Source of the DNA: Heterodontus francisci
Lineage: Eukaryota
NCBI RefSeq assembly: GCF_036365525.1
Contig: NC_090404.1
Span: 27,736,149 to 27,800,148, forward strand
DNA length: 64,000 bases
Reading direction: 5' to 3'
Shown: positions 31,886 through 63,660 of the stretch, piece by piece
Layout of the letters: each line of letters begins with the position of its first letter
Numbering within the stretch: position 1 is the stretch's first letter
Made by a program: the position numbers and the translations under genes
The notes under the pieces: generated by a model
The model's database searches: none
What the model was told of the DNA's origin: nothing
Seen by the model: the letters and a program-made list of their open reading frames with translations, nothing else

Positions 31886-32595
31886 TACTTATATTATAAT
31901 ATTATCTTTAATATTATCTAATATGATATTCTCTTTTACAGTTCAGTGGGATGTAAACAGTAACCCCAGCACCTTCAGGAGAGATGGTGCTAAAGCCCAT
32001 GTGTGCAGAGCGACAATAAAATCAATGACTGTAAATCCTCTCCTAATACTCTGTAAAAGGAGTTTACAAAAGTTATTTGCTGTTACAGGATAGAAATTCA
32101 GAACAGACAATTCTAGATCCTATGGAACATTTTATTCCTCTCTTGTTCCCCCAAAGCTGTAAATCCCCGTCCCACACACTCTTCCTCCTCCCTGTGCTGA
32201 AATCCAAACCCATGTCACCATCTGCACCATTTCTTTCCTCCACTCCCAGTTTTCTCCCTCCCTCTATTCTAGCTGGGTTCAGTTCTCCAGCCCCTGTGTG
32301 CAGAGTGAGAATCAAATCAATGAGTCAATGATTTTCTGTCCTGGTCACTGGGACCCTGAAGCTCCGCCCACTCTCTGTTCTGGTCTCACAAATTACCAGA
32401 TTCATTCAGCTCAATTTCACAACCTGTCTTTGTGTTTTTGTGGGATCTCTTTCACTCCCTTTTTTTCCTGTTGTAACGTCATTACAGGGTAGTGAAGGGG
32501 AGCATTTGCAGACAGGAAACTCAAACAAAACATCACAGCACGATCTGACAGAGTCACTCGATTCATCAGGATCTGAATGTCATCGGCCTTTGACC

Positions 32596-33717
32596 ATGGA
32601 AGCAAAAAGCCTCGTTCACAGTGGGGAGAAACTGTACACGTGTTCTGTGTGTGGACGAGGCTTCAGCCAATCATCTGGCCTGTTGAAACACAAGCGCAGT
32701 CACACTGGGGAAAAGCCGGGGAAATGCGGGGACCGTGAGAAGGAATTAAATTACCCGTCTGAGCTGGAAGCTGCTCAACACAGTCACACTGGAGAGAGGC
32801 TGTTCACCTGCTCCGTGTGTGGGAAGGGATTCACTCAGTCATCAAACCTGCTGACACATCAGCGAATTCACACTGGGGAGAGGCCGTTCACCTGCACTGA
32901 ATGTGGGAAGGGATTCACTCAGTCATCAAACCTGCTGACACACCAGCGAATTCACACTGGGGAGCGGCCGTTCACCTGCACTGAGTGTGGGAAGAGATTC
33001 ACTCATTCATCCACCCTGCTGACACACCAGCGAGTTCACACTGGGGAGAGGCCATTCACCTGCTCTGAGTGTGGGAAGAGATTCACTCATTCGTCCACCC
33101 TACTGACACACCAGCGAGTTCACACTGGGGAGAGGCCATTCACCTGCACAGAGTGTGGGAAGGGATTCATTCATTCATCCGGCCTGCTGACACACCAGCG
33201 AGTTCACACTGGGGAGAGGCCGTTCACCTGCTCTGAGTGTGGGAAGGGATTCTCTCAGTCATCGAACCTGCTGACACACCAACGAATTCACACTGGGGAG
33301 AGGCCGTTCACCTGCTCTGATTGTGGGAAGGGATTCTCTCATTCATCCACCCTGCTGATACACCAGCGAGTTCACACTGGGGAGAGGCCGTTCACCTGCT
33401 GTGAGTGTGGGAAGGGATTCTCTCAGTCATCCAAGCTGCTGGGACACCAGCGAATTCACACTGGGGAGAGGCCATTCATCTGCTCTGTGTGTGGGAAGGG
33501 ATTTGCTAATTCATCCGCCCGGCTGAGGCACAAGCGAGTTCACACTGGGGAGAGGCCATTCACCTGCTCCGTGTGTGGGAAGAGATTCACTCAGTCGTCC
33601 AACCTGCTGACACACCAGTGCATTCACACTGGGGAGAGACCATTCACCTGCTCCGTGTGTGGGAAGGGATTCACTCAGTCATGCAAGTTACTGAGACACC
33701 AGCGAGTTCACAGATGA
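32596..33717 (+). CDS. Tandem C2H2 (Kruppel-type) zinc-finger protein, 373 aa, 12 intact fingers plus 1 degenerate finger
   Basis: Open frame of CxxC-x12-HxxxH fingers with TGERP linkers. ATG lies in ACCATGG Kozak context, a splice acceptor TTACAG ends at 32487, and AATAAA occurs at ~33913 and ~33940. The frame is open back to the acceptor, so an upstream coding exon is possible. Confidence 0.93.
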
Positions 33718-44545: not shown

Positions 44546-44689
44546 TTGTACCTCACACCATAGTTGATGGCCTGGGCACTCGGGTTTCTGTATCATTTAT
44601 TTAATGATTTTGTTCTTTGAGTCTCCGGCTCCAAACTCCATGGGATGACACAAAAAAATCAGCCATTTAACAATTGGAGTTTTCAATGG

Positions 44690-45100
44690 CGGATTAATTA
44701 CTCAAGATGCTCCATTGGTCAGAAAGTCCCCTAGCAATGACTCCAGGAGCCCAGTGCGCTGGCGTGGGTTCTGATTGTGCTTTGTCCATGCGCAGTACGG
44801 TTGACGGACAGAGGCGGATCTGGAGGCGGGAGGAGTTTGTGGGTGCAGGGGAGGAATTGGAACTGTGGGTGGGCTGGGAATCTTCATAAACACCCGAATA
44901 AGAGGACACAGGCCCCGTGTTTACCCCGCAGTGACCGGGGGGTGGGGGGGGAGAGCACTGGCCGCCATCTTAGACAGGTCAGGGTGCATGTGCGGCCAAC
45001 TTGGTGAGGGCACAGCGAGTGGGCGGGGCTTCAGAGTGTCTGTTCCCAGCCGGGTCCAAGTGCCCAGGAGATGGAGCATCCTGAACAACAGGGTTTTCAG
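44690..45100. promoter_or_regulatory. CpG-rich putative promoter
   Basis: ATTGG at ~44714, CATGCGCA (NRF1-like) at ~44788, GGCGGG, YY1 motif GCCGCCATCTT at 44961-44971, and GC box GGGCGGGGC at ~45021. Confidence 0.55.
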
Positions 45101-45194
45101 CAGCTTCACCCACTCCCAGGCTGCATGTGATGTTTGCAGCTTAGAGGAGTCCATGGGCCATGTATGTATTCAGTGTGAGAGGTTACTGTCCCCA

Positions 45195-51904: not shown

Positions 51905-53530
51905 AGAATGATAGAATAATAGAAAGTTTAAGGCACAGAAAGAGGCCACTTGGCCCATCGTATCGGCGCCGACTGAAAAACGAGCCACCTATTCTAATCC
52001 CACCTTCCAGCATTTGGTCCATAGCCCTGCAGTTTACAGCACTTGAGGTGCATATCCAGACTCCTTTTGAATGAGTTGAGGTTCTCTGCCTCAATTATCC
52101 TTTCAGGCAGCGAGTTCCAGACCATCACCACCCTCTGGGTGAAAAGGCTTTTCCTCATCTCCCCTCAAATGTTTCTACCAATCACTTTAAATCTATGCCC
52201 CCTCATCACTGCCCTCTCTGCTAAGGTGAATAGACCCTTCACCTCCACTCTATCCAGGACCCTCAAGATTTTGTATATTTCAATCAGATCTCCCCTCAGC
52301 CTTCTCTGTTCCAAGGAAAACAACCCCAGCCTATCCAATCTTTCCTCATAGCTGAATTTTTCTAGTCCTGGCAACATCCTCATAAATCTCCTCGTACCCT
52401 CTCTAGTGCAATTACGTCCTTTCTGTAATGAGGTGACCAGAACTGCACACAGTATTCAAGTTGTGGTCTAACAGTTCCAGCATAATGTCCTTGTTCTTGT
52501 ATTCTATACCTCGGCTAATAAAGGAAAGGATTCCTTATGCCTTCTTAACCACCTTATCGACCTGTCCTGCTACCTTCAGGGATCTGTGGACATTCACTCC
52601 AAGGTCCCTCACTTCCTCTACACTTCTCAGTATTTTCCTATGAATCGTGTATTCCTTTGCCTTGTTTGACCTCCCCAGATGCATCACCTCTCACTTCTCC
52701 AGGTTGAATTCCACTTGCCACTTTTCTGCAAATCTGAGCAGACCAACAATACCTTCCTGCAGCCTACAGCTATCCTCCTCTCTATCTACCACACGGCCAA
52801 TCTTTGCGTCGTCTGCAAACTTCTTCATCATGTCCCCTACAGTTACATCCAAATCGTCAATATACAGCACAAAAAGCAGGGGACCCAGTGTTGAGCCCTG
52901 CAGAACGCCACTGGAAACAGCCCTCCAGTCGCTAAAACAGCTGTCAACAATTACCAGTATTTCTTGGTTTTATGTCAACATTTACCCTTTGTTTCTGCCA
53001 CTGAGCCAATTTTGTATCCACCTTGCTGCATTTCCCTGGATCCCATGGGATTTTATTTTTTTAACCATCTGCCATGTGGGACCTTGTCAGAAGCCTTGCT
53101 AAAATCCATGTAGACCACATCAACTGCATTACCCTCATCTATCTTCCTTGTTACTTCTTCAAAAAATTCGATCAAGTTCATCAAAGAAGATCTTCCCTTA
53201 ACAAGTCCATGCTGACTATCCTTGATTAACCTGTGCCTTTCTAAGTGACAGTTTATCCTGTCTCTCAGAATAGATTCCAATAATTTGCCCACTACTGAGG
53301 TTAGACTGCCTGGCCTGTAATTATTCAGTCTATTCTTCACTCCCTTTTTAAACAGAGGTACAAATTGAGCAATTCTCCAATCCTCCTGCAATGAGGTCTG
53401 GAAAATGATGGTCAGACCCTCTGCTATTTCCTCTCTTGCTTCTTTTAACAGCCTAGGATAAATTTCATTTGGGCCTGGTGATTTATCAACTTTCACAGAT
53501 GCTAATCCCACTAATACTTCCTCTCTCCCT
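51905..53530 (-). mobile_element. CR1-type LINE (3' half of ORF2 and tail)
   Basis: KSPGPNEIYPRLLKE...VDVVYMDFSKA and YEERLDRLGLFSLEQRRLRGDLIE. Confidence 0.92.
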
Positions 53531-53739
53531 AGGCTCCCTTACGTAAGCTCGGACTAGATGGTGTGTTCCCTTCACTGAAGGACATCAGTTGGGTGTTTAC
53601 AATAGTTCAGCAGCTTTCATGGTCACTTTTTCCTAGTGCCTGACCCACAAATTACCAGATTCATTCTGCTCCATTTCACAACCTGCTTTAAAGTTTCTCT
53701 CACACTCCCTTTTTTTTCTGTTTTAAATCAATTTCACAG

Positions 53740-54126
53740 GGTATCAGAAGTGGAGGATTTACAGTCAGAAACTCAAACCAACATCACATCAGGATCTGAC
53801 AGTCGTCCAATTTATCATAACCTGAATATCAGAGAATTTTGAACATGGAAGGAGAAAGCAGCGATCACAGTGGGGAGAAACAGTGCACGTGTTCTGTGTG
53901 TGGACGAGGTTTCAGCTGATCATCTGGCCTGTCAAAACACAAGTGCCATCACACGAGGGAGAAGCCATGGAAATGTGGGGACTGTGGAAAGGGATTCAAT
54001 TACCCATCCCAGCTAGAAAGTCATTGGCGCACTCACACTGGGGAGAGGCCGTTCACCTGCTCAGAGTGTGGGGAGGGATTCACTACGTCATCCTACCTTC
54101 TGACACACCAGTGAGTACACAAGTAA
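53740..54126 (+). pseudogene. C2H2 ZNF pseudogene (3 fingers), paralog of the 32596 gene
   Basis: Acceptor TTTCACAG ends at 53739; ATG at 53845 (MEGESSDHSGEK); in-frame TGA at 53917-53919; frameshift in finger 3; conserved 3'UTR motif and AATAAA at ~54251. Confidence 0.88.
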
Positions 54127-54324
54127 CTACAGTGGTTAGATTCTGCTATTAACCACATCCAGGACTGAACGATATTCGTTGGGAACTGTTTCTGCTGATG
54201 TTAAAGAACTGCAGCCCAGTTATAGGGGTGAAAGTTTGGGATAAAAGTCAAATAAATCAGTTTTGTATTAAATACACAGTGTGTTGAGTCTTTTTAATAT
54301 CTTTAACACAAGTTCATTCCTTTT

Positions 54325-54785
54325 GAAGTGCTCTCCCTCTCCCCTGTCTCCTCCATCCTCACCTCCAAAAAGTGCGAAGAGCTCATGGTCTTCTTTGTCA
54401 CTCAGATTGAGACCATCCAATCAGCTGCCTCTGCTGCTTCGCTCCCTCCCACTAGCCCCCCCAGGTCAAACTGTCTCGAAAGATCCTCCTGCCCGAGCCC
54501 TGAACCCACATCTTTCCCTAGTTTCTCTCCTATCTCCCTCATGTCCTCTCTGAGCTCATCTTGTCCATGAGACCCACCTCCTGCTCCCTCGACCCTATTC
54601 CCACTAAACTGCTGACCAGCCAACTTCCCCATGTTAACTGATATTGTTAATGGTTCTCTCTCTTCAGGTACTGTCTATCTCTCCTTTAAATCCACCATCA
54701 TCACCCCTTCCTCAAAAAACAAGCTTGACCCCACTGTCCTTGCAAACAACCACCATCTGAAACCTTCCTTTCTTCTCCAAAAATC
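54325..54785 (+). mobile_element. L2-type LINE fragment
   Basis: CEELMVFFVTQIETI, SCSLDPIPTKLL and DIVNGSLSSG...LDPTVLAN motifs. Confidence 0.8.
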
Positions 54786-54789
54786 CTTG

Positions 54790-57370
54790 ATAGACCCAGC
54801 AGAGGAGGCAGCAGACTGGTATACAGTGGGGTGGGAGTTACCTTGGGAGTCCTCAGCATCGACTTCAGACCTCATGAAATCTCATGGCATCAGGTCAAAC
54901 ATGACCAAGGAAACCTCCTGCTGATTACCACCTACTGCCCTCCCCACCCCCGTCAGCTGATGAATCAGTACTCCTCCAAGTTGAACACTACTTGGAGGAA
55001 GCACCGAGGGTGGCAAGGACGCAGAATGTACTCTGGTGAGGGACTTCAATATCCATCACCAAGAGTGGCCAGGCAGCACCACTATTCACCGAGCTGGCTG
55101 AGTGCTAAAGGACATAGCTGCTAGAATGGGTCTGCAGCAGGTGATGAGGGAACCAACAAGAGGTAAAAATATATTTGACCTCATCGTCACCAATTTGCCT
55201 GCCACAGATGCATCTGTCCACGATAGTATTGGTAGGAGTGACCACAGCATAATCCTTGTGGAGGCGAAGTCCCGTCTTCACATTGAGGATACCCTCCATC
55301 GTGTTGTGTGGCACTACCACCGTGCTAAATGGGATAGATTTTAAACAGATCTAACAATGCAAAACTGGGCATCCATGAGGTGCTGTGGACCATCAGCAGC
55401 GGCAGAACTGTATTCAACCACAGTCTGTAACCTCATGGCCCGGCATATCCCCCACTCTACCATTACCATCAAGCCAGGAGACCAACCTTGGTTCAATGAA
55501 GAGTGCAAGAGGGCATGCCAAGAGCAGCACCAGACACACCTCAAAATGACGTGTCAACCTGGTGAAGCGACATGCCAGGACTACTTGCATGCCGAACAGC
55601 ATAAGCAGCATGCAATAGACAGATCAGATACATGCTCTGCAGTCCTGCCACATCCAGTCGTGAATGGTGGTGGACCATTAAACAATTAACAGGAGGAGGT
55701 TGCTCCAAAAATATCCCCCATCCTCAACGACGGGGGAGCCCAGCACATCAGTGCAAAAGATAAGGCTGAAGCATTTGCAACAATCTTCAGGCCGAAGTGC
55801 CAAGTGGATGATCCATCTCAGTCTTCTCCTGATGTCCCCAGCATCACAGATGCCAATATTCAGCCAATTCGATTAACTCCACGTGATATCAAGGAATGAC
55901 TGAAGGCACGAGATCCTGCAAAGGCTATGGTCCCTGATAACACTGGCATCTATCCTGCAATGTGGAAAATTGCCCAGGTATGTCCTGCAAACACAAAGCA
56001 GGACAAGTCCAACCCGACCAATTACCGCCCTATCAGTCTACTCTCGATCTTCAGTAAAGTGATGGAAGGTGTCATCGACAGTGCTATCAGGTAGCACTTG
56101 CTTAGCAATAACCTGCTCACTGACGCTCAGTTTAGGTTATCCCAGGGCCAATCATTTCCTGACCTCAATACAGCCTTGGTTCAAACATGGACAAAAGAGC
56201 TGAACTCAAGAGATGAGGTGAGAGTGACTGCCCTTAACATCAAGGCAGCATTTGACCGAGTATGGCATCAAGTAGCCCTAGCAAAACTGGAGTCAATGGG
56301 AAACAGGGGAAAACTCTCTGCTGGTGGGAATTGTACCTAGCACAAAGGAAGATTGTTGTGGTTATTGGAGGTCAATCATCTGAGCTCCAGGACATCACTG
56401 CAGGAGTTCCTTAGGGTAGTGTCCTCGGCCCAACCATCTTCAGCTGCTTCACCTTCCTTCAATCATAAGGTCAGAAGTGGGGATGTTTGCTGATGATTGC
56501 ACAATGTTCAGCACCATTCGCGACTCCTCAGATACTGAAGCAGTCCGTGTAGAAATGCAGCAAGACCTGGACAATATCCAGGCTTCAACTGATAAGTGGC
56601 AGGTAACATTCGCGCCACACAAGTGCCAGGCAATTACCATCTCCAACAAGAGAGAATCTAACCATTTCCCCTTGACATTTAACAGCATTACCATCGCTTA
56701 ATACCCCACTATCAACATCCTAGGGGCTATCATTGACCAGAAACTGAACTGGAGTAGCCATATAAATACCGTGGCTACAAGAGCAGGTCAGAGGCTAGGA
56801 ATCCTGCGGTGAGTAACTCACCCTCCTGACTCCCCAAAGCCTGTCCACCATCTACAAGGCACAAGTCAGGAGTGTGATGGAATACTCTCTATTTGCCTGG
56901 ATGGGTGCAGCTCCAACAACACTCAAGAAGCTCGACACCATCCAGGACAAAGCAGCCCACTTGATTGTTTGTAGATGGGGTGCCATTCACTCCCTCCACC
57001 ACCGACGCACAGTGGCAGCAGTGTGTACCATCTACAAGATGCAATGCAGTAACGTACCAAGGCTCCTTAAACAGCACCTTCCAAACCCGTGACCTCTACC
57101 AACTAGAAGGACAAGGGCAGCAAATGCATGGGAACACCACCATCTGCAAGCTCCCCTCCAAGTCACACACCATCCTGACTTGAAACTATATTGCTCGATC
57201 AAAATCTTGGAACACCCTTCCTAACAGCACTGTGGGTGTACCTACCACACATGGACTGCAGCGGATCAAGAAAGCAGCTCACCACCACCTTCTCAAGGGC
57301 AATTAGGGATGGGCAATAAATGCTGGCCTGGCCAGAAATGCCCACATCCCATAAAACGAATAAAAATAAA
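54790..57370 (+). mobile_element. Decayed non-LTR retrotransposon (CR1-group; APE endonuclease, RT and 3' end)
   Basis: EPTRGKNIFDL...GRSDH, NYRPISLL, AFDRVWH, MFADD and WQVTFAPHKCQ with stops and frameshifts; A-rich end. Confidence 0.9.
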
Positions 57371-57374
57371 TGGA

Positions 57375-58665
57375 ATAAAACATCCCAAGGCACTTCACAG
57401 GAGTGTTGCAAAACAAAATATGACACCGAACTACATAAGGAGATACTAGAACAGATGACCAAATGCTTGGTCAAAGAGATAGCTTTTGAGGAGTATCTTG
57501 AAGGAGGGAAGTGAGATAGAGAGGCAGTGAGGTTGAGGGAGGGAATTCCAGAGCTTGGGTCCCAGGCAGCTGAAGGCAGGGCCGCCAATGAGGGAGAGAT
57601 TACAATTAGGGATGATCAAGAGGACAGAATCAGATGAGCATCTCAGAGGGTTGTAGGGCTGGAGGTCATTACCGAGATAGTGAGGGGCAAGGCCATGGAG
57701 GGATTTAAAAACAAGGATGACAATTTTTAAAATCAAGACTTATCTTGACCAGAATCCAACGTGTGTCAGTGAGCACAGGTGTAGTAGGTGAACAGGATTT
57801 GGTGCAAGTTAAGACATGGGCAGCAGAGTTTTGTATGACCTCAAGGTTACAGGGGGTAGAATGTGGGAGACTAGCCAGGAGTCTGTTGGGATAATCAAGC
57901 ATGGAGGTAACAAAGGCACAAATGAGGGTTTCACCAGCAGATGAACTGAGACAGGGGCGAAGTCGAGCGGTTACCGAGGTGGAAATAGGTGGTCTTAGTG
58001 ATGGCACGAACATGCAGTCTGAAGGTCATCTCAGGGTCAAATGTGATACCGAGGTTGTAAAAAACTGGTACAATTTCAGACTGCTGCCAGAGAAAGGGAT
58101 GGAGCCAGTAGCTAGGGAACAGAGATTGGAGTAGCGACCAAAATAAATTTACTTCAGTCTTCCCAATATTTAATTGAACGAAATTTCTGCTCATCCAGCA
58201 CTAGATCTCGAAGAAGCAGTCTGATAATTCAGAGAGAGCGGAGAGGTTGAGAGAGGTGGTGGTGAAGTAGAGCTGGACATTGTCAGCCAAAACTGACACC
58301 AGCGTTAACAGTGTGGGAGCAGGAAGAGAAGCCGTTGCAAGTGATTCTGTGTCTACAGTTAGCTAAGAATGGAACCAGGTGACAGCAGTCCTACCAGGCT
58401 GGATGACAATGGAGAAATGTTGGAGGGTGAAGGTGTGGTCAACAATGTCAAAGACTGCAGAGAGGTTAAAAAGGATAAGGAGGGAAAGTTGGTCCTAGTC
58501 ACATATGATGCCATTCCTGACTTCGATTTGAGCCGTTTCTGCACTGTGGCAGGGGTGGAAAACTGGTTGGAGGGATTCAAATATGGAGTTCCAGGAAAGA
58601 TGGGAATGGATTTGGGAAGCAATAACACATTCAATGACAGTGGAGAGGAAAGGGAGGTTGGAGTA
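57375..58665 (-). mobile_element. L2-type LINE 3' part
   Basis: MSRNFVQLNIGKTE, LICAFVTSMLDYPN and ILVFKSLHGLAPHYL. Confidence 0.85.
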
Positions 58666-58843
58666 AAAACAACTGATGATGGTTCACTGACCTGAAACGT
58701 TAACTCTGCTTCTCTCTCCACAGATGGGTATTTCCAGCACTTTTTCTTTTTATTTCAGATTTCCAGCATCTGCAGTATTTTGCTTTTATATAAGGGAGGT
58801 TGGAGATTGCCCTGTTTCTGAAGCTCTGGTTTCTCACTGATAG

Positions 58844-59146
58844 AAATCACAGTATTTCTCAGAGATCCCTCAATTGAAGACATCTGGATCAATAAGACTG
58901 CCTCCCTGGTGTGTGAAGTGGTCTCTACAATTCCCACTGAGATTGCGATCTCTTGGACAGTTGATGGTAAGATGAGGACTAAAGGAGTTCAAATCGAAGC
59001 AGCTACAAAGGATGGAAACCAGTACCTGACAATCAGCCGCTTGACAAGTAGCATGGAAGAGTGGGATAGCGGGGTTGAATACTCATGCTCAGCACATGGG
59101 GACCAATCATCAAATCCGGTAACAAAACAAACAAGAAAGACAAAAG
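58844..59146 (+). CDS. Immunoglobulin heavy-chain constant exon (C1-set; IgNAR C2-like or homologous IgW domain)
   Basis: AG at 58842-58843, GT at 59147, phase 1-1. Encodes EITVFLRDPSIEDIWINKTASLVCEVV...ISWTVDG...NQYLTISRLTSSMEEWDSGVEYSCSA...TRKTK with conserved C-W-C; closely resembles the recalled shark IgNAR C2. Confidence 0.9.
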
Positions 59147-59221
59147 GTGGGTAAAAATATATCACCCTGTTTTTAAATGACAGTGGAAGGAAGACTAACC
59201 CTGGTTGAACTTCTGTTACAG

Positions 59222-59539
59222 TCGAGCCAATGCAGCCAAAGGTCCGCCTCCTGCCTCCAACACCAAAGGAGATTCAAAATACCAGCACCGCCATTCTCAC
59301 ATGCTTGATAAGAGGATTCTATCCTGATAAAATAACCGTTTCCTGGGAGAAGGACGGAGTTGCTTTAAACTCGAACGTCACCAGTTTCCCCACTGCTCTT
59401 GAACAGGACCAGAGCTTCAGCACAAGCAGCCTTCTCATTTTACCTGCAGCTGAATGGAAAAAGGGAGAAACATACACCTGTTCTGCCTCACATCCACCTT
59501 CAGACTCTACCGTGAAGAGGGCCATCAGCAACCCAGAAG
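59222..59539 (+). CDS. Immunoglobulin heavy-chain constant exon (IgNAR C3-like or homologous IgW domain)
   Basis: Follows a 75-bp GT-AG intron with ACTAAC branch point. Encodes VEPMQPKVRLLPP...LTCLIRGFYPDKITVSW...FPTALEQD...EWKKGETYTCSASHPPS; donor G|GTAAGG at 59540. Confidence 0.92.
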
Positions 59540-60949
59540 GTAAGGGCAGTTACACAATATATACTCACACAATCAGTGCTTTGTACTTAATCTAAAGGCA
59601 ACATCAAACAACGGGGGCACTGGTGATCAGATTCCTCTAGTTGTAGGAACAGCAAAATGTGTGGATAACAATTAATGCAGCCTTAACTCACAGGCCACAC
59701 GGAGACAATAAAATGATCAGCACTCAGTGTGTGCGCCGCTATATACATGTGAGGACCCAATGGTAAGAATGAAGTAGGAGAAGGATTTCTCCAACTTCAC
59801 TGTACGGTTCACTGGTGATTGTGGGCTATCTTTAAACAGCAATAAACAGTAGCTGAAGATGCATAGAGTTCCATAATGTGGGAAGAAGACTTTGGGTGCT
59901 GTTTACTTCGTTCTGTACTGCAGGATTTAAGTCCGACACAACAATGAGTGCCAGCAGTCAGTTAAAAGCCAAAAACAGCCAGTTATCAGGCGGCTCAGCC
60001 AATTGATGCGAGTAGATTTTTACATTTTAATTCTTCATATCTTCTGCACCACCAGGGTTAGAGGTCATAGGAGTCTAATAACATCATCATGAACAGAATC
60101 CAATGCTGTGACCTTTTGTTTTGATGAGTGTAAACTAAACTGTTTTCATTTCTGATTATTTGTAATTTGATTGGAATAAAAATAATGAGGTATATTGGAA
60201 CCCACTACGTTCTGGCTACGGGGCTGCAACTGACCTCCAGCACCAGTCAGTCTGATGCGTAAACGTCTGCAGCATGAGAACGGGAACAATTTGTCCCAAT
60301 TAAATTCCAGTCAGAGTTATTCCTGATCTGTGGAATAAATGATTGGAAATATTATTTGCACAATAATAGCCCCACCACCTCCGTGTGAAGGATGAAGAAG
60401 CAATAAACTTCCCTGGATCTGGGGTTGGATACCCGTTTCTTGCTGAGTTCGTTGATTTCACCTGATGGTGTTCGGGGCCTGAAATTGGTCTTAGTGTCCC
60501 TCGATTCACGAAACAGCAATAGTGCGTGGTTCCACTCCTGATCTATGGTAAATGCGTGTGTGCTATTTCTGGGAACAAGAAGAGAGGACTTGGCTGCAAT
60601 GTCCTCACGGTACAACACCCTGCTGATATTTACTGTGTTTCGGGTCTCATGAACAATAGACCATTGGGTCAGGTACTGGAGGGCAGCCAATAGATCTCGT
60701 ACAGCAGTGAGTACAGGAGAGGATAGAATCAGGTAAATACTGCTATCGGGCACAATCATAAATTCTAACAACCGAGCTGAAGCATTGGCGAGGACCCCTA
60801 CACTGTAACAGTTAACTATGCACACCAGAAACCTCCAGTACTTTACCACCAGACTCCGCTGAGTTGACGAATCTCAACTGCTGGCTTTTTGGAAGGTGCA
60901 ATGGCCCAGGTACATCCGGGTTACTGAGGCGTAACCCATTGTTTCCTCT

Positions 60950-62460
60950 TACATAGGGTTACATAGACTATACAGCACAGAAATAGGCCATTCAGCCCAA
61001 TAAGTCCATGCAAGCGTTTATGCTTGGCTCAAGTCTCCTCCCGTATCGCCCCATCTAACTCTTTGAGCATAACGCTCTATTGAAATCTCCTTTATATTCT
61101 TGTCTCCTTCTTTGGCCTCCTTATCTCGAGAGACAGTGGATAAGCGCCTGGAGGTGGTCAGTGGCTTGTGAAGCAGCGCCTGGAGTGGCTATAAAGGCCA
61201 ATTCTAGAGTGACAAGCTCTTCCACAGGTGCTGCAGAGAAATTTGTTTGTCGGGGCTGTTACACAGTTGGCTCTCCCCTTGCGCTTCTGTCTTTTTTCCT
61301 GCCAACTACTAAGTCTCTTCGACTCGCCACACTTTAGCCCTGTCTTTATGGCTGCCCGCCAGCTCTGGCGAACGCTGGCAACTGACTCCCACAACTTGTG
61401 ATCAATGTCACAGGATTTCATGTCGCGTTTGCAGACGTCTTTAAAGCGGAGACATGGACGGCCGGTGGGTCTGATACCAGTGGCGAGCTCACTGTACAAT
61501 GTGTCTTTGGGGATCCTGCTATCTTCCATGCGGCTCACATGGCCAAGCCATCTCAAGCGCCGCTGACTCAGTAGTGTGTATAAGCTGGGGATGTTGGCCG
61601 CCTCGAGGACTTCTGTGTTGGAGATACGGTCCTGCCACCTGATGCCAAGTATTCTCCGGAGGCAGCGAAGATGGAATGAATTGAGAGGTCGCTCTTGGCT
61701 GACATACGTTGTTCAGGCCTTGCTGCCATAGAGCAAGGTACTGAGGAGACAGGCCTGATACACTCGGACTTTTGTGTTCTGGACTCCATTTAAGTACATT
61801 GTTCGCTTCAACCACTCCTTGTGGTAGAGAGTTCCCCATTTTCACCTTTCTCTAGACAAAGAAGCTTGTTCTGAATGCCCTATTGAATTTCTTGGTGACT
61901 ACCTTATGTTAATGGTCACGAGCTTTGCTCTTTCCCAAGTGGAAACATTCACTGTGTCTACTCTACCAAAACCTTTCATAATAAAAAAAAACTATTCGGT
62001 CACCCCTCAGCCTCCTCTTTTCAGGAGAAAAGAGACCTAGCCTGTTCATTCTCTCCTGAAAGGTATACCCCCGTATTCATGGTGTCATCCTTGTAAATAA
62101 TGTCTGCATCCTCTCCAATGCCTCTGTATCATTTTTCTTTTTATATATGACAAGCAGATTGTGTGCACTACTCCAGATGTGATCAAATCAAGGTTTGACG
62201 GCGGTTTAGCATAACTTCTTTACCTTTCAATTCTAGTTTGTTAATCTGCGTTTCTACTTTTAACGATTTATGCATTTGTACTCCCAGATCCATTTGCTCC
62301 TCTTCCACATTTATATTTTTATTTTCTAAGTAATACGTCACCTCTTTAACTTTCTTGGCAAAATGTGATACTTCACATTTATCTACGTTAAATTCATTGG
62401 ACAATTTTATTCCCATACTGCAAGTTTCTTCATATCTTCTTGTAATTCTACAACGGACTA
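60950..62460 (-). mobile_element. CR1-type LINE 3' part interrupted by RTE
   Basis: Tail ATACAGCACAGAAATAGGCCATTCAGCCC; motifs NSLPQGVVEAN and FNVDKCEVSHF. Confidence 0.8.
61098..61786 (-). mobile_element. RTE-clade LINE, 5'-truncated
   Basis: Nearly identical to 46903-47412, with the same C-terminal CSTCGRACHSRIGLYSH motif. Confidence 0.9.
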
Positions 62461-63097
62461 CTTCAATATCTGAGGAGTCACGAATGGTGCTGATTTTTAG
62501 ATTTAGATTTAGAGATACAGCACTGAAACAGGCCCTTCGGCCCACTGAGTCTGTGCCGACAATTAACCACCCATTTATACTAATCCTACACTAATCCCAT
62601 ATTCCTACCACATCCCCACCTGTCCCTATATTTCCCTACCACCTACCTATACTAGGGGCAATTTATAATGGCCAATTTACCTATCAACCTGCAAGTCTTT
62701 TTGGCTGTGGGAGGAAACCGGAGCACCCGGAGAAAACCCACGCAGACACAGGGAGAATTTGCAAACTCCACACAGGCAGTACCCAGAATTGAACCCGAGT
62801 CGCTGGAGCTGTGAGGCTGCGGTGCTAACCACTGTGCCGCCCTGAACATTGTGCAATCATCAGCGAACATCCCCACTTCTGACCTTATGATTGAAGGAAG
62901 GTCATTGATGAAGCAGCTGAAGATGGTTGGGCCGAGGACACTACCCTGAGGAACTCCTGCACTGATGTCCTGGAGCTCAGATGATTGACCTCCAACAACC
63001 ACAACCATCTTCCTTTACGCTAGGTATGACTCCAAGTAGCAGACAGTTTTCCCCCCGATTCCCATTGACTTCAGTTTTGCTAGGGCTCCTTGAGGCC
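62461..63097 (-). mobile_element. Fragment of the same LINE family as 54790-57370, split by HE1
   Basis: AGVPQGSVLGPTIFSCFINDL...MFADDCTMF; reverse complement of ~56262-56540. Confidence 0.85.
62493..62841 (-). mobile_element. HE1-type SINE
   Basis: Highly similar to the 43317 copy; host LINE sequence resumes on both sides. Confidence 0.9.
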
Positions 63098-63660
63098 AGA
63101 TTTAAAGGAGAGAGGGACAACACCTGAAGAGAGAACTGTTAACAAGATCCGCTAACATGGGGAAGTTGGCTGGTCAGCAGTTTAGTGGGAATAGGGTCGA
63201 AGGAGCAGGAGATGGGTCTCATGGACAAGATGAGCTCAGAGACAGCATGAGGGAGATAGGAGAGAAACTAGAGAAAGATGTGGGTTCAGGTGACGGGAAG
63301 GGGAGGGGAGGGGAGGGGAGGGGGGGAGCATTAGAGTAAGTTTGGCCCAGTGGGTGAGTGGAAGGAAGGGTTGCAGCAGAGGCCGCTGATTGGATGACCT
63401 CAATCTTAGTGGACAAAGAAATCCATGAGCTCCTCGCACAAGTTGCTGGAGTTGTGGGTGGAAGAGACGGGGCAGAGAGAGGAGGATAAGAACATGGTTT
63501 GCAGCAGAGACGAGAAGCCGAGGGTTATCTTTGCATTCCGGGATGATCTTAGAATAGTGAACAGTTTTAGCAGATGAGAGCAGGACCCAATAGTGTTTTC
63601 AGTGGTCCAGACAACTCTGGCGGTGGATGGATAAACCAGTTGTCGGCCATATCCTTTCAA
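63098..63660 (-). mobile_element. L2-type LINE fragment
   Basis: Reverse complement similar to 54330-54690 (CEELMDFFV). Confidence 0.8.

What the first reader, a model, noticed from the sequence alone, without database searches (positions are those of the whole stretch)
58844..59539. Two intact, apparently orphan IgNAR/IgW-type constant exons inside a zinc-finger gene cluster
Seen: two stop-free C1-set exons with canonical phase-1 splice sites, a branch point and intact Cys/Trp residues. They are co-oriented with ZNF copies at 32.6, 42.1, 53.8 and 63.9 kb, and retroelement DNA runs to ~55 bp before the first acceptor. I found no V, D, J, RSS, leader or C1 exon in 58 kb upstream and no intact C4/C5 downstream. 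Known: shark IgH genes are compact V-D-J-C clusters, and IgNAR has C1-C5. Inference: this is either a recently truncated or translocated cluster fragment, or a retained module spliced from another promoter (e.g. 44.7-45.1 kb) as a sterile or chimeric transcript. Its intactness contrasts with the decayed ZNF neighbours.
Basis: partly seen in the sequence, partly recalled or inferred. Interest (0 to 1): 0.7.

Follow-up and report, generated by a model that had tools for sequence, protein, structure and literature searches.

The report
Stray shark antibody gene fragment
This is a two-exon piece of a shark IgNAR antibody gene sitting inside an old repeat, 6 million bases from the nearest complete copy; it is likely a dead fragment whose exons look intact because the working genes likely overwrote them by gene conversion.

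Summary
Observation confirmed. The exons are IgNAR C2 and C3 (92% and 97% identical to horn-shark IgNAR; not IgW). They are true orphans: no leader, V, RSS, C1, C4 or C5 in 214 kb around them, and genome-wide searches place those exons only in six complete clusters and one broken cluster 6-18 Mb away on the same contig. The piece (window 58806 to about 62465) interrupts one copy of a common repeat; a paralogous empty site exists, so it is an insertion, not a cluster decayed in place. It is a mosaic: its last 1 kb of homology is about 15% diverged and an old branch, while the exons and the next 1.2 kb are 0-5% from complete clusters (one 281-base intron tract is identical to two of them). Gene conversion therefore best explains the intactness; selection is not needed. 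Zinc-finger genes also lie between the complete IgNAR clusters, so the setting is ordinary. dN/dS did not discriminate. No orphan-specific spliced transcript was displayed, but that test was weak. Verdict: likely non-functional, conversion-refreshed IgNAR fragment; modest interest.

The parts
58844..59146 (+). IgNAR C2 exon, open, phase 1
   Evidence: best PDB hit 4q9b (novel antigen receptor) E 4.5e-40; 92% to P0028 residues 236-335; 11/303 nt differences from cluster at 34.6 Mb
59222..59539 (+). IgNAR C3 exon, open, phase 1
   Evidence: best single-domain PDB hit 4q9c E 2.1e-46; 97% to P0028 residues 337-441; 5/318 nt differences
58806..60745 (+). Young-looking (inferred converted) zone of the fragment: last 38 bases of the C1-C2 intron, C2, C3, start of C3-C4 intron
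   Evidence: 2-5% from complete clusters; 59540-59820 is 0/281 from clusters A/B; old-looking patches at 59991-60051 (10/60) and 60158-60179 (10/22)
60746..62447 (+). Old tail of the fragment, collinear with the C3-C4 intron of complete clusters
   Evidence: 14-17% from all complete clusters, yet they are its best genome hits (84-86%); 53 of 957 sites shared with the broken cluster against both functional ones
61106..61779 (-). Young LINE piece inserted in the tail, absent from complete clusters
   Evidence: gap in alignments; 95-96% to other copies; 88% to a reverse-transcriptase-like ORF nearby
57400..58805 (.). Left half of the interrupted host repeat, with a short element inserted at about 58664-58791 between 14-base direct repeats; ATTG shared at the junction
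   Evidence: family label (L2/CR1-like LINE, SINE) is recalled, not tested
62466..63090 (.). Other repeat pieces between the IgNAR homology and the host repeat's right half
   Evidence: weak RT-like match 62865-63092, E 5e-5
63091..63480 (.). Right half of the interrupted host repeat
   Evidence: follows the left half after 55-81 bases in 8 of 14 other copies; empty-site paralog at G000:C34:26.045 Mb, 87% over 1161 bases

Best explanation
This is an IgNAR C2-C3 fragment that interrupts one copy of an old repeat in a zinc-finger region, and it is likely a non-functional insertion whose exons were likely refreshed by gene conversion from complete IgNAR clusters on the same chromosome. Shown: identity, absence of the other exons, the interrupted repeat, the empty site, the mosaic divergence. 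Inferred: (1) about 3 kb of an ancestral IgNAR cluster was copied into a break in the repeat, with 4 bases of microhomology on the left and about 60 bases of target lost, roughly when clusters were ~15% diverged from today's; (2) the left 1.9 kb was later overwritten several times by ectopic conversion, most recently from the 33.8/34.6 Mb pair; (3) with no leader, V, C1, secretory or membrane exon it makes no antibody chain and drifts between conversions.
For: Six complete, stop-free clusters hold L-V-C1-C5; the window holds only C2-C3. Host repeat halves are contiguous (55-81 bases apart) in 8 of 14 other copies; a paralog at 26.045 Mb has the same short element end, the ATTG and the unbroken repeat. 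Left zone 57/1795 vs tail 149/1025 differences from cluster A (Fisher p 1e-27); a 281-base intron tract is identical to A/B (p 1.5e-5 against the rest of the left intron), which protein selection cannot explain. Tail: functional lineage gained ~8.5% since the split, 53/957 shared old alleles, against 0/370 in 60269-60640 (p 1.6e-4 after scaling for the slower rate there). Exons carry 5-8 synonymous differences where ~21 are expected at tail age (p 4e-5 to 7e-4). With 11-16 substitutions the chance of keeping frame, splice sites and Cys/Trp under neutrality is 0.25-0.39 (indels not modelled). Orphan-only changes 3 synonymous/8 replacement, ratio 0.78. ZNF paralogs interleave with the complete clusters.
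Against: dN/dS is not discriminating: complete clusters give 0.51-0.95 among themselves, and 11 changes only exclude ratios near 0.2 (p 0.03). The converted zone covers both exons and ends before the repeat-rich tail, which selection for conversion would also produce. The mosaic could have formed in a donor cluster now lost, before a later insertion. One contig of depth ~11 carries the orphan letter at 58930 in run X2. No displayed contig bridged the left junction.
Confidence: 0.8

Rival explanations
1. The C2-C3 module is expressed from a ZNF promoter (for example the element at 44.6-45.2 kb) as a chimeric or V-less transcript and is kept by selection, with conversion repairing it.
For: Splice sites and frames intact; the 44.6-45.2 kb element has a 78% copy about 1.7 kb upstream of a ZNF exon in the same orientation; converted zone centred on the exons; shallow contigs with orphan letters exist. 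V-less IgW and C3-ending IgNAR forms are described (PMC4279169 passages; PMC8692893 section 26).
Against: No leader, secretory or membrane exon nearby; spliced contig ends displayed at C2 and C3 lead to C1 and C4, i.e. complete clusters; orphan-letter contigs displayed are unspliced and equally cover flanking repeats; no 100% match to C3 among 33 longer proteins; orphan branch ratio 0.78.
Confidence: 0.06
2. A recent insertion from a mosaic donor cluster that has since been lost or is missing from the assembly.
For: Sharp left junction with microhomology; conversion is easier to picture inside a whole cluster; the insertion itself cannot be dated directly.
Against: No donor found: the tail's best hits are 84-86% and the broken cluster at 45.69 Mb is 20% away. 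The tail branch (~8%) is close to half the 13% distance between filled and empty sites, which fits an old insertion.
Confidence: 0.1
3. Assembly chimera joining part of a real IgNAR cluster to ZNF-region DNA.
For: Repeat-rich region with near-identical cluster pairs (99.6% over 40 kb); no displayed contig spans the left junction.
Against: The fragment has its own alleles; independent contigs match them (59816-60088 with 0 differences where paralogs have 22-28; 60619-60790, across the mosaic switch, with 2 where paralogs have 22 or more); flanks are in register with an empty-site paralog.
Confidence: 0.03

Closest known systems
IgNAR heavy-chain clusters of sharks (V-D-D-D-J-C1-C5-Sec-Tm); horn-shark IgNAR protein P0028
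   Same: C2 92%, C3 97% amino-acid identity; same exon lengths, phases and intron; same contig as six complete clusters.
   Different: Only C2-C3 and ~2.2 kb of intron; no L, V, D, J, RSS, C1, C4, C5, tails; inserted in a repeat.
Incomplete IgNAR clusters of white-spotted bamboo shark (3 of 7; PMC8692893, section 26 read)
   Same: V-less, incomplete IgNAR loci on the same chromosome as complete ones.
   Different: That section does not describe insertion into a repeat or conversion tracts; its figure with the exon content was not visible to me.
Gene conversion among shark Ig-family C exons (UrIg2 C2-C9; PMC12227049, passages read)
   Same: Homogenisation of C exons by conversion in the elasmobranch antigen-receptor complex.
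   Different: There tandem exons of one expressed gene; here an isolated fragment 6-16 Mb from inferred donors, with tracts that include intron.
Immunoglobulin orphons / dispersed pseudogene fragments (recalled, no call)
   Same: Ig gene piece outside a working locus.
   Different: Best-known cases are V segments on other chromosomes; this is a C-exon pair within the same gene-family region.

Membership tests
IgNAR constant exons C2/C3 | Closest to IgNAR C2 and C3 rather than other Ig C domains | tested here: met
   4q9b and 4q9c best single-domain PDB hits; 92/97% to P0028 at positions of C2, C3
IgNAR constant exons C2/C3 | C1-set fold residues, open frames, phase-1 splice sites | tested here: met
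Functional IgNAR cluster | Leader and V exon upstream | tested here: not met
Functional IgNAR cluster | D and J segments with RSS | tested here: not met
   0 RSS in 29-84 kb vs 3 in control; no blastn match to the V-J region
Functional IgNAR cluster | C1, C4, C5 and secretory tail | tested here: not met
Functional IgNAR cluster | Transmembrane exons downstream | tested here: inconclusive
   TM exon was not identified as such; blastn of 50 kb of cluster A against 214 kb showed no long high-identity match outside the fragment except repeats
Functional IgNAR cluster | Spliced transcript | tested here: inconclusive
   contigs only, one sample, RNA status a guess, tables cut
IgW constant exons | Higher identity to IgW-type long heavy chains than to IgNAR | tested here: not met
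   46-52% to 4 long non-NAR heavy chains (P0023, P0026, P0030, P0032; IgW label is my inference) vs 61-97% to IgNAR proteins
Processed (retro) pseudogene | Introns removed, poly-A tail | tested here: not met
   C2-C3 intron and flanking introns retained
Gene-converted pseudogene fragment | Tracts of near-identity to different paralogs beside old sequence | tested here: met

The most novel reading that the evidence does not exclude
The C2-C3 pair is a selected, expressed module: spliced from a zinc-finger promoter into a V-less Ig-constant or chimeric transcript, and repeatedly restored by long-range conversion from working IgNAR genes 6-16 Mb away.
Probability: 0.06. Interest if true: 0.7.

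Novelty: new member of a known kind. Interest (0 to 1): 0.25.

Why it matters
As it most likely stands, it is a small, clear record of how shark Ig clusters turn over: pieces are copied into repeats and are later overwritten by working genes megabases away, so an intact Ig exon is no proof of function and exon-based dating or IgNAR gene counts can mislead. It gives a testable trace of concerted evolution among IgNAR clusters. If it were expressed from a ZNF promoter, it would be a new V-less Ig-constant product.

Tried and rejected
1) Missing exons nearby: none in 214 kb or within 6 Mb by DNA search for V, C1, C4-C5. 2) Cut-and-paste from the broken seventh cluster at 45.69 Mb, which lacks C2-C3: rejected, its deletion ends do not match the fragment and it is 20% from the tail. 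3) Tail as an unrelated repeat copy: rejected, best hits are the IgNAR clusters. 4) Tail as recent copy plus hypermutation: rejected, shared old alleles and an ordinary transition-rich spectrum. 5) Orphan as donor to clusters E/F: the two shared replacement alleles in C2 (R, D) are also in 4q9b, so likely ancestral. 6) dN/dS: uninformative. 7) Sequencing runs: no RNA holder listed on record; 4 of 9 runs laid as contigs over 52500-62600; at 59049 and 59053 all displayed depth, and at 58930 all but ~11 of 57136 in X2, carried the complete-cluster letter, but contigs drop rare variants and 581 joints and 4984 loose ends were not shown, so absence of an orphan transcript is not shown; the 44.7-45.1 kb element was outside the laid stretch. 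8) Earlier scan findings: none. 9) Four paper searches listed no description of this locus; subscription journals and supplements were not seen.

Full report
Observation. The window has two open exons, 58844-59146 and 59222-59539, with AG/GT phase-1 boundaries. Both are C1-set Ig domains. Their best single-domain solved relatives are the novel-antigen-receptor entries 4q9b and 4q9c. They are 92% and 97% identical to residues 236-335 and 337-441 of P0028, named by its source as Heterodontus francisci IgNAR heavy chain, and only 46-52% identical to four long non-NAR shark heavy chains. P0028 is 100% identical in C1-C4 to two clusters in this genome, so the genome is horn shark or a very close relative (inference). 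The exons are IgNAR C2 and C3.

Are they orphans? The window is G000:C34:27.736-27.800 Mb. A DNA search found 7 copies of C2-C3, all on C34. The other 6 (33.8, 34.6, 37.2, 40.1, 41.7, 43.5 Mb) each have leader, V, C1-C5 and secretory tail without stops (D and J were checked only in the 34.6 Mb cluster). In 50 kb upstream + window + 100 kb downstream only C2-C3 match. Genome searches for C1, C4-C5 and L-V gave the six clusters plus a broken seventh at 45.68-45.69 Mb and nothing near the window. No RSS in 29-84 kb, 3 in the control. The orphan state is real.

How it got there. Homology to complete clusters begins sharply at 58806, 38 bases before the C2 acceptor, and ends near 62447-62465. The repeat DNA on the left (to 58805) and on the right (from 63091) are two halves of one element: in 8 of 14 other copies fetched they lie 55-81 bases apart (one more had a 413-base gap, the rest lacked the left half). 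One of those rest, at C34:26.045 Mb, is 87% identical over 1161 bases to the right flank, shares the end of the short element just left of the junction and the ATTG, and continues unbroken: an empty site. ATTG is also the first four bases of the IgNAR homology. So the piece is an insertion with microhomology and about 60 bases of target lost, not a cluster decayed in place. It keeps introns, so it is no retrocopy. The repeat family names (L2/CR1-like, SINE) are recalled, not tested.

Why the exons look fresh. The fragment is a mosaic. 58806-60745 differs from cluster A (34.6 Mb) at 57 of 1795 sites, 60746-62447 at 149 of 1025 (p 1e-27). The tail still finds the IgNAR clusters as best genome hits (84-86%, others 80% or less over comparable length). 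With the broken cluster as third point, the tail is an old branch: about 8% on its own branch, 8.5% on the functional branch, 53 of 957 sites shared with the broken cluster against both functional clusters tested; in 60269-60640 there are 0 of 370 such sites. Intron 59540-59820 is identical to clusters A/B (0/281) and 3-5% from the others, while short patches 10/60 and 10/22 diverged sit in between; segment trees place the fragment next to different clusters in different tracts. The exons have 5-8 synonymous differences where about 21 would be expected at tail age. The simplest reading is repeated ectopic gene conversion from working clusters (inference). Half of the filled/empty-site distance (13%) is near the tail branch length, which fits an old insertion converted in place, but a mosaic donor now lost is not excluded.

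Function. Orphan-only exon changes are 3 synonymous and 8 replacement (ratio 0.78). This does not discriminate, because complete clusters give 0.51-0.95 among themselves. With so few changes, staying intact by chance has probability 0.25-0.39 (substitutions only). There is no leader, V or tail to make an antibody chain; read-through of the C3 donor stops after 18 codons. No run was on record as RNA. Four runs of one sample, kept as contigs and guessed to be RNA, were laid on 52500-62600: displayed spliced ends lead to C1 and C4 sequence, so to complete clusters; contigs with the orphan's own letters are shallow, unspliced and also cover flanking repeats, so they may be DNA or read-through. They do support the assembly: 0 differences over 59816-60088 and 2 over 60619-60790, where paralogs differ at 22 or more positions. 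Tables were cut and contigs drop rare variants, so an orphan transcript is neither shown nor excluded. The element at 44.6-45.2 kb has a 78% copy upstream of another ZNF exon, so it may be a ZNF promoter; nothing links it to C2.

Setting. Paralogs of the window's ZNF gene occur along C34 from 18 to 43 Mb, including between complete IgNAR clusters (34.2, 34.4, 35.0, 40.5, 41.1, 41.6, 42.6, 43.0 Mb, best 40 of 1910 candidates scored). None were seen within about 20 kb of the complete clusters. An IgNAR piece among ZNF genes is thus local traffic within one gene-family region.

Literature. PMC8692893 (passages and section 26 read): bamboo shark has 7 IgNAR clusters, 3 incomplete, and a C3-ending membrane form. 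[quoted passage not shown] PMC4279169 (passages): 2-20 IgNAR clusters, a V-less IgW form, some evidence of conversion in V regions. Other papers were seen only as search listings; none listed describes this locus; supplements and subscription papers were not seen. No earlier scan findings.

Verdict. Real feature, correctly seen; a likely non-functional IgNAR C2-C3 insertion refreshed by conversion (0.8). New member of a known kind; interest 0.25.

Noticed in passing
G000:C34:45678800-45699500 (L058-L060): A seventh, broken IgNAR cluster: 54 bases of V, frameshifted C1, C2-C3 deleted, C4 cut, no C5; introns ~80-84% to complete clusters.
   Followed up: partly
G000:C34:33.79-33.83 Mb and 34.63-34.67 Mb; also 40.07 and 43.55 Mb: Complete clusters come in near-identical pairs (99.6% over 40 kb for the first pair; 0.2% over the fragment for the second): recent duplications or uncollapsed haplotypes.
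   Followed up: no
window 60180-60640: This part of the C3-C4 intron is also unusually close (4-7%) between the broken cluster and complete ones, against ~20% elsewhere, and 60187-60359 has a second 82% copy in the same intron: a conserved element or conversion hotspot.
   Followed up: partly
G000:C34:1.48-2.00 Mb: Three 72% matches to the IgNAR last exon and secretory tail, probably IgW clusters.
   Followed up: no
window 1-30000 and L018-L022: At least 80 kb of CT-rich low-complexity satellite directly before the ZNF region.
   Followed up: no
window 32332-33714: Open C2H2 zinc-finger exon (460 codons, 12 fingers by motif scan) of a family with many copies on C34.
   Followed up: partly
window 44601-45192: Promoter-like element with 75-78% copies 25 kb downstream (opposite strand) and at C34:26.047 Mb; holds a YY1-like motif (motif recalled).
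   Followed up: partly
L008, about 6900-8400 (window-equivalent 70.9-72.4 kb): Tandem repeat with open frames on both strands.
   Followed up: no
complete clusters, C2-C3 exons: Replacement/synonymous ratios between working IgNAR clusters are high (0.51-0.95, few changes), suggesting weak constraint or diversification of these C domains.
   Followed up: no
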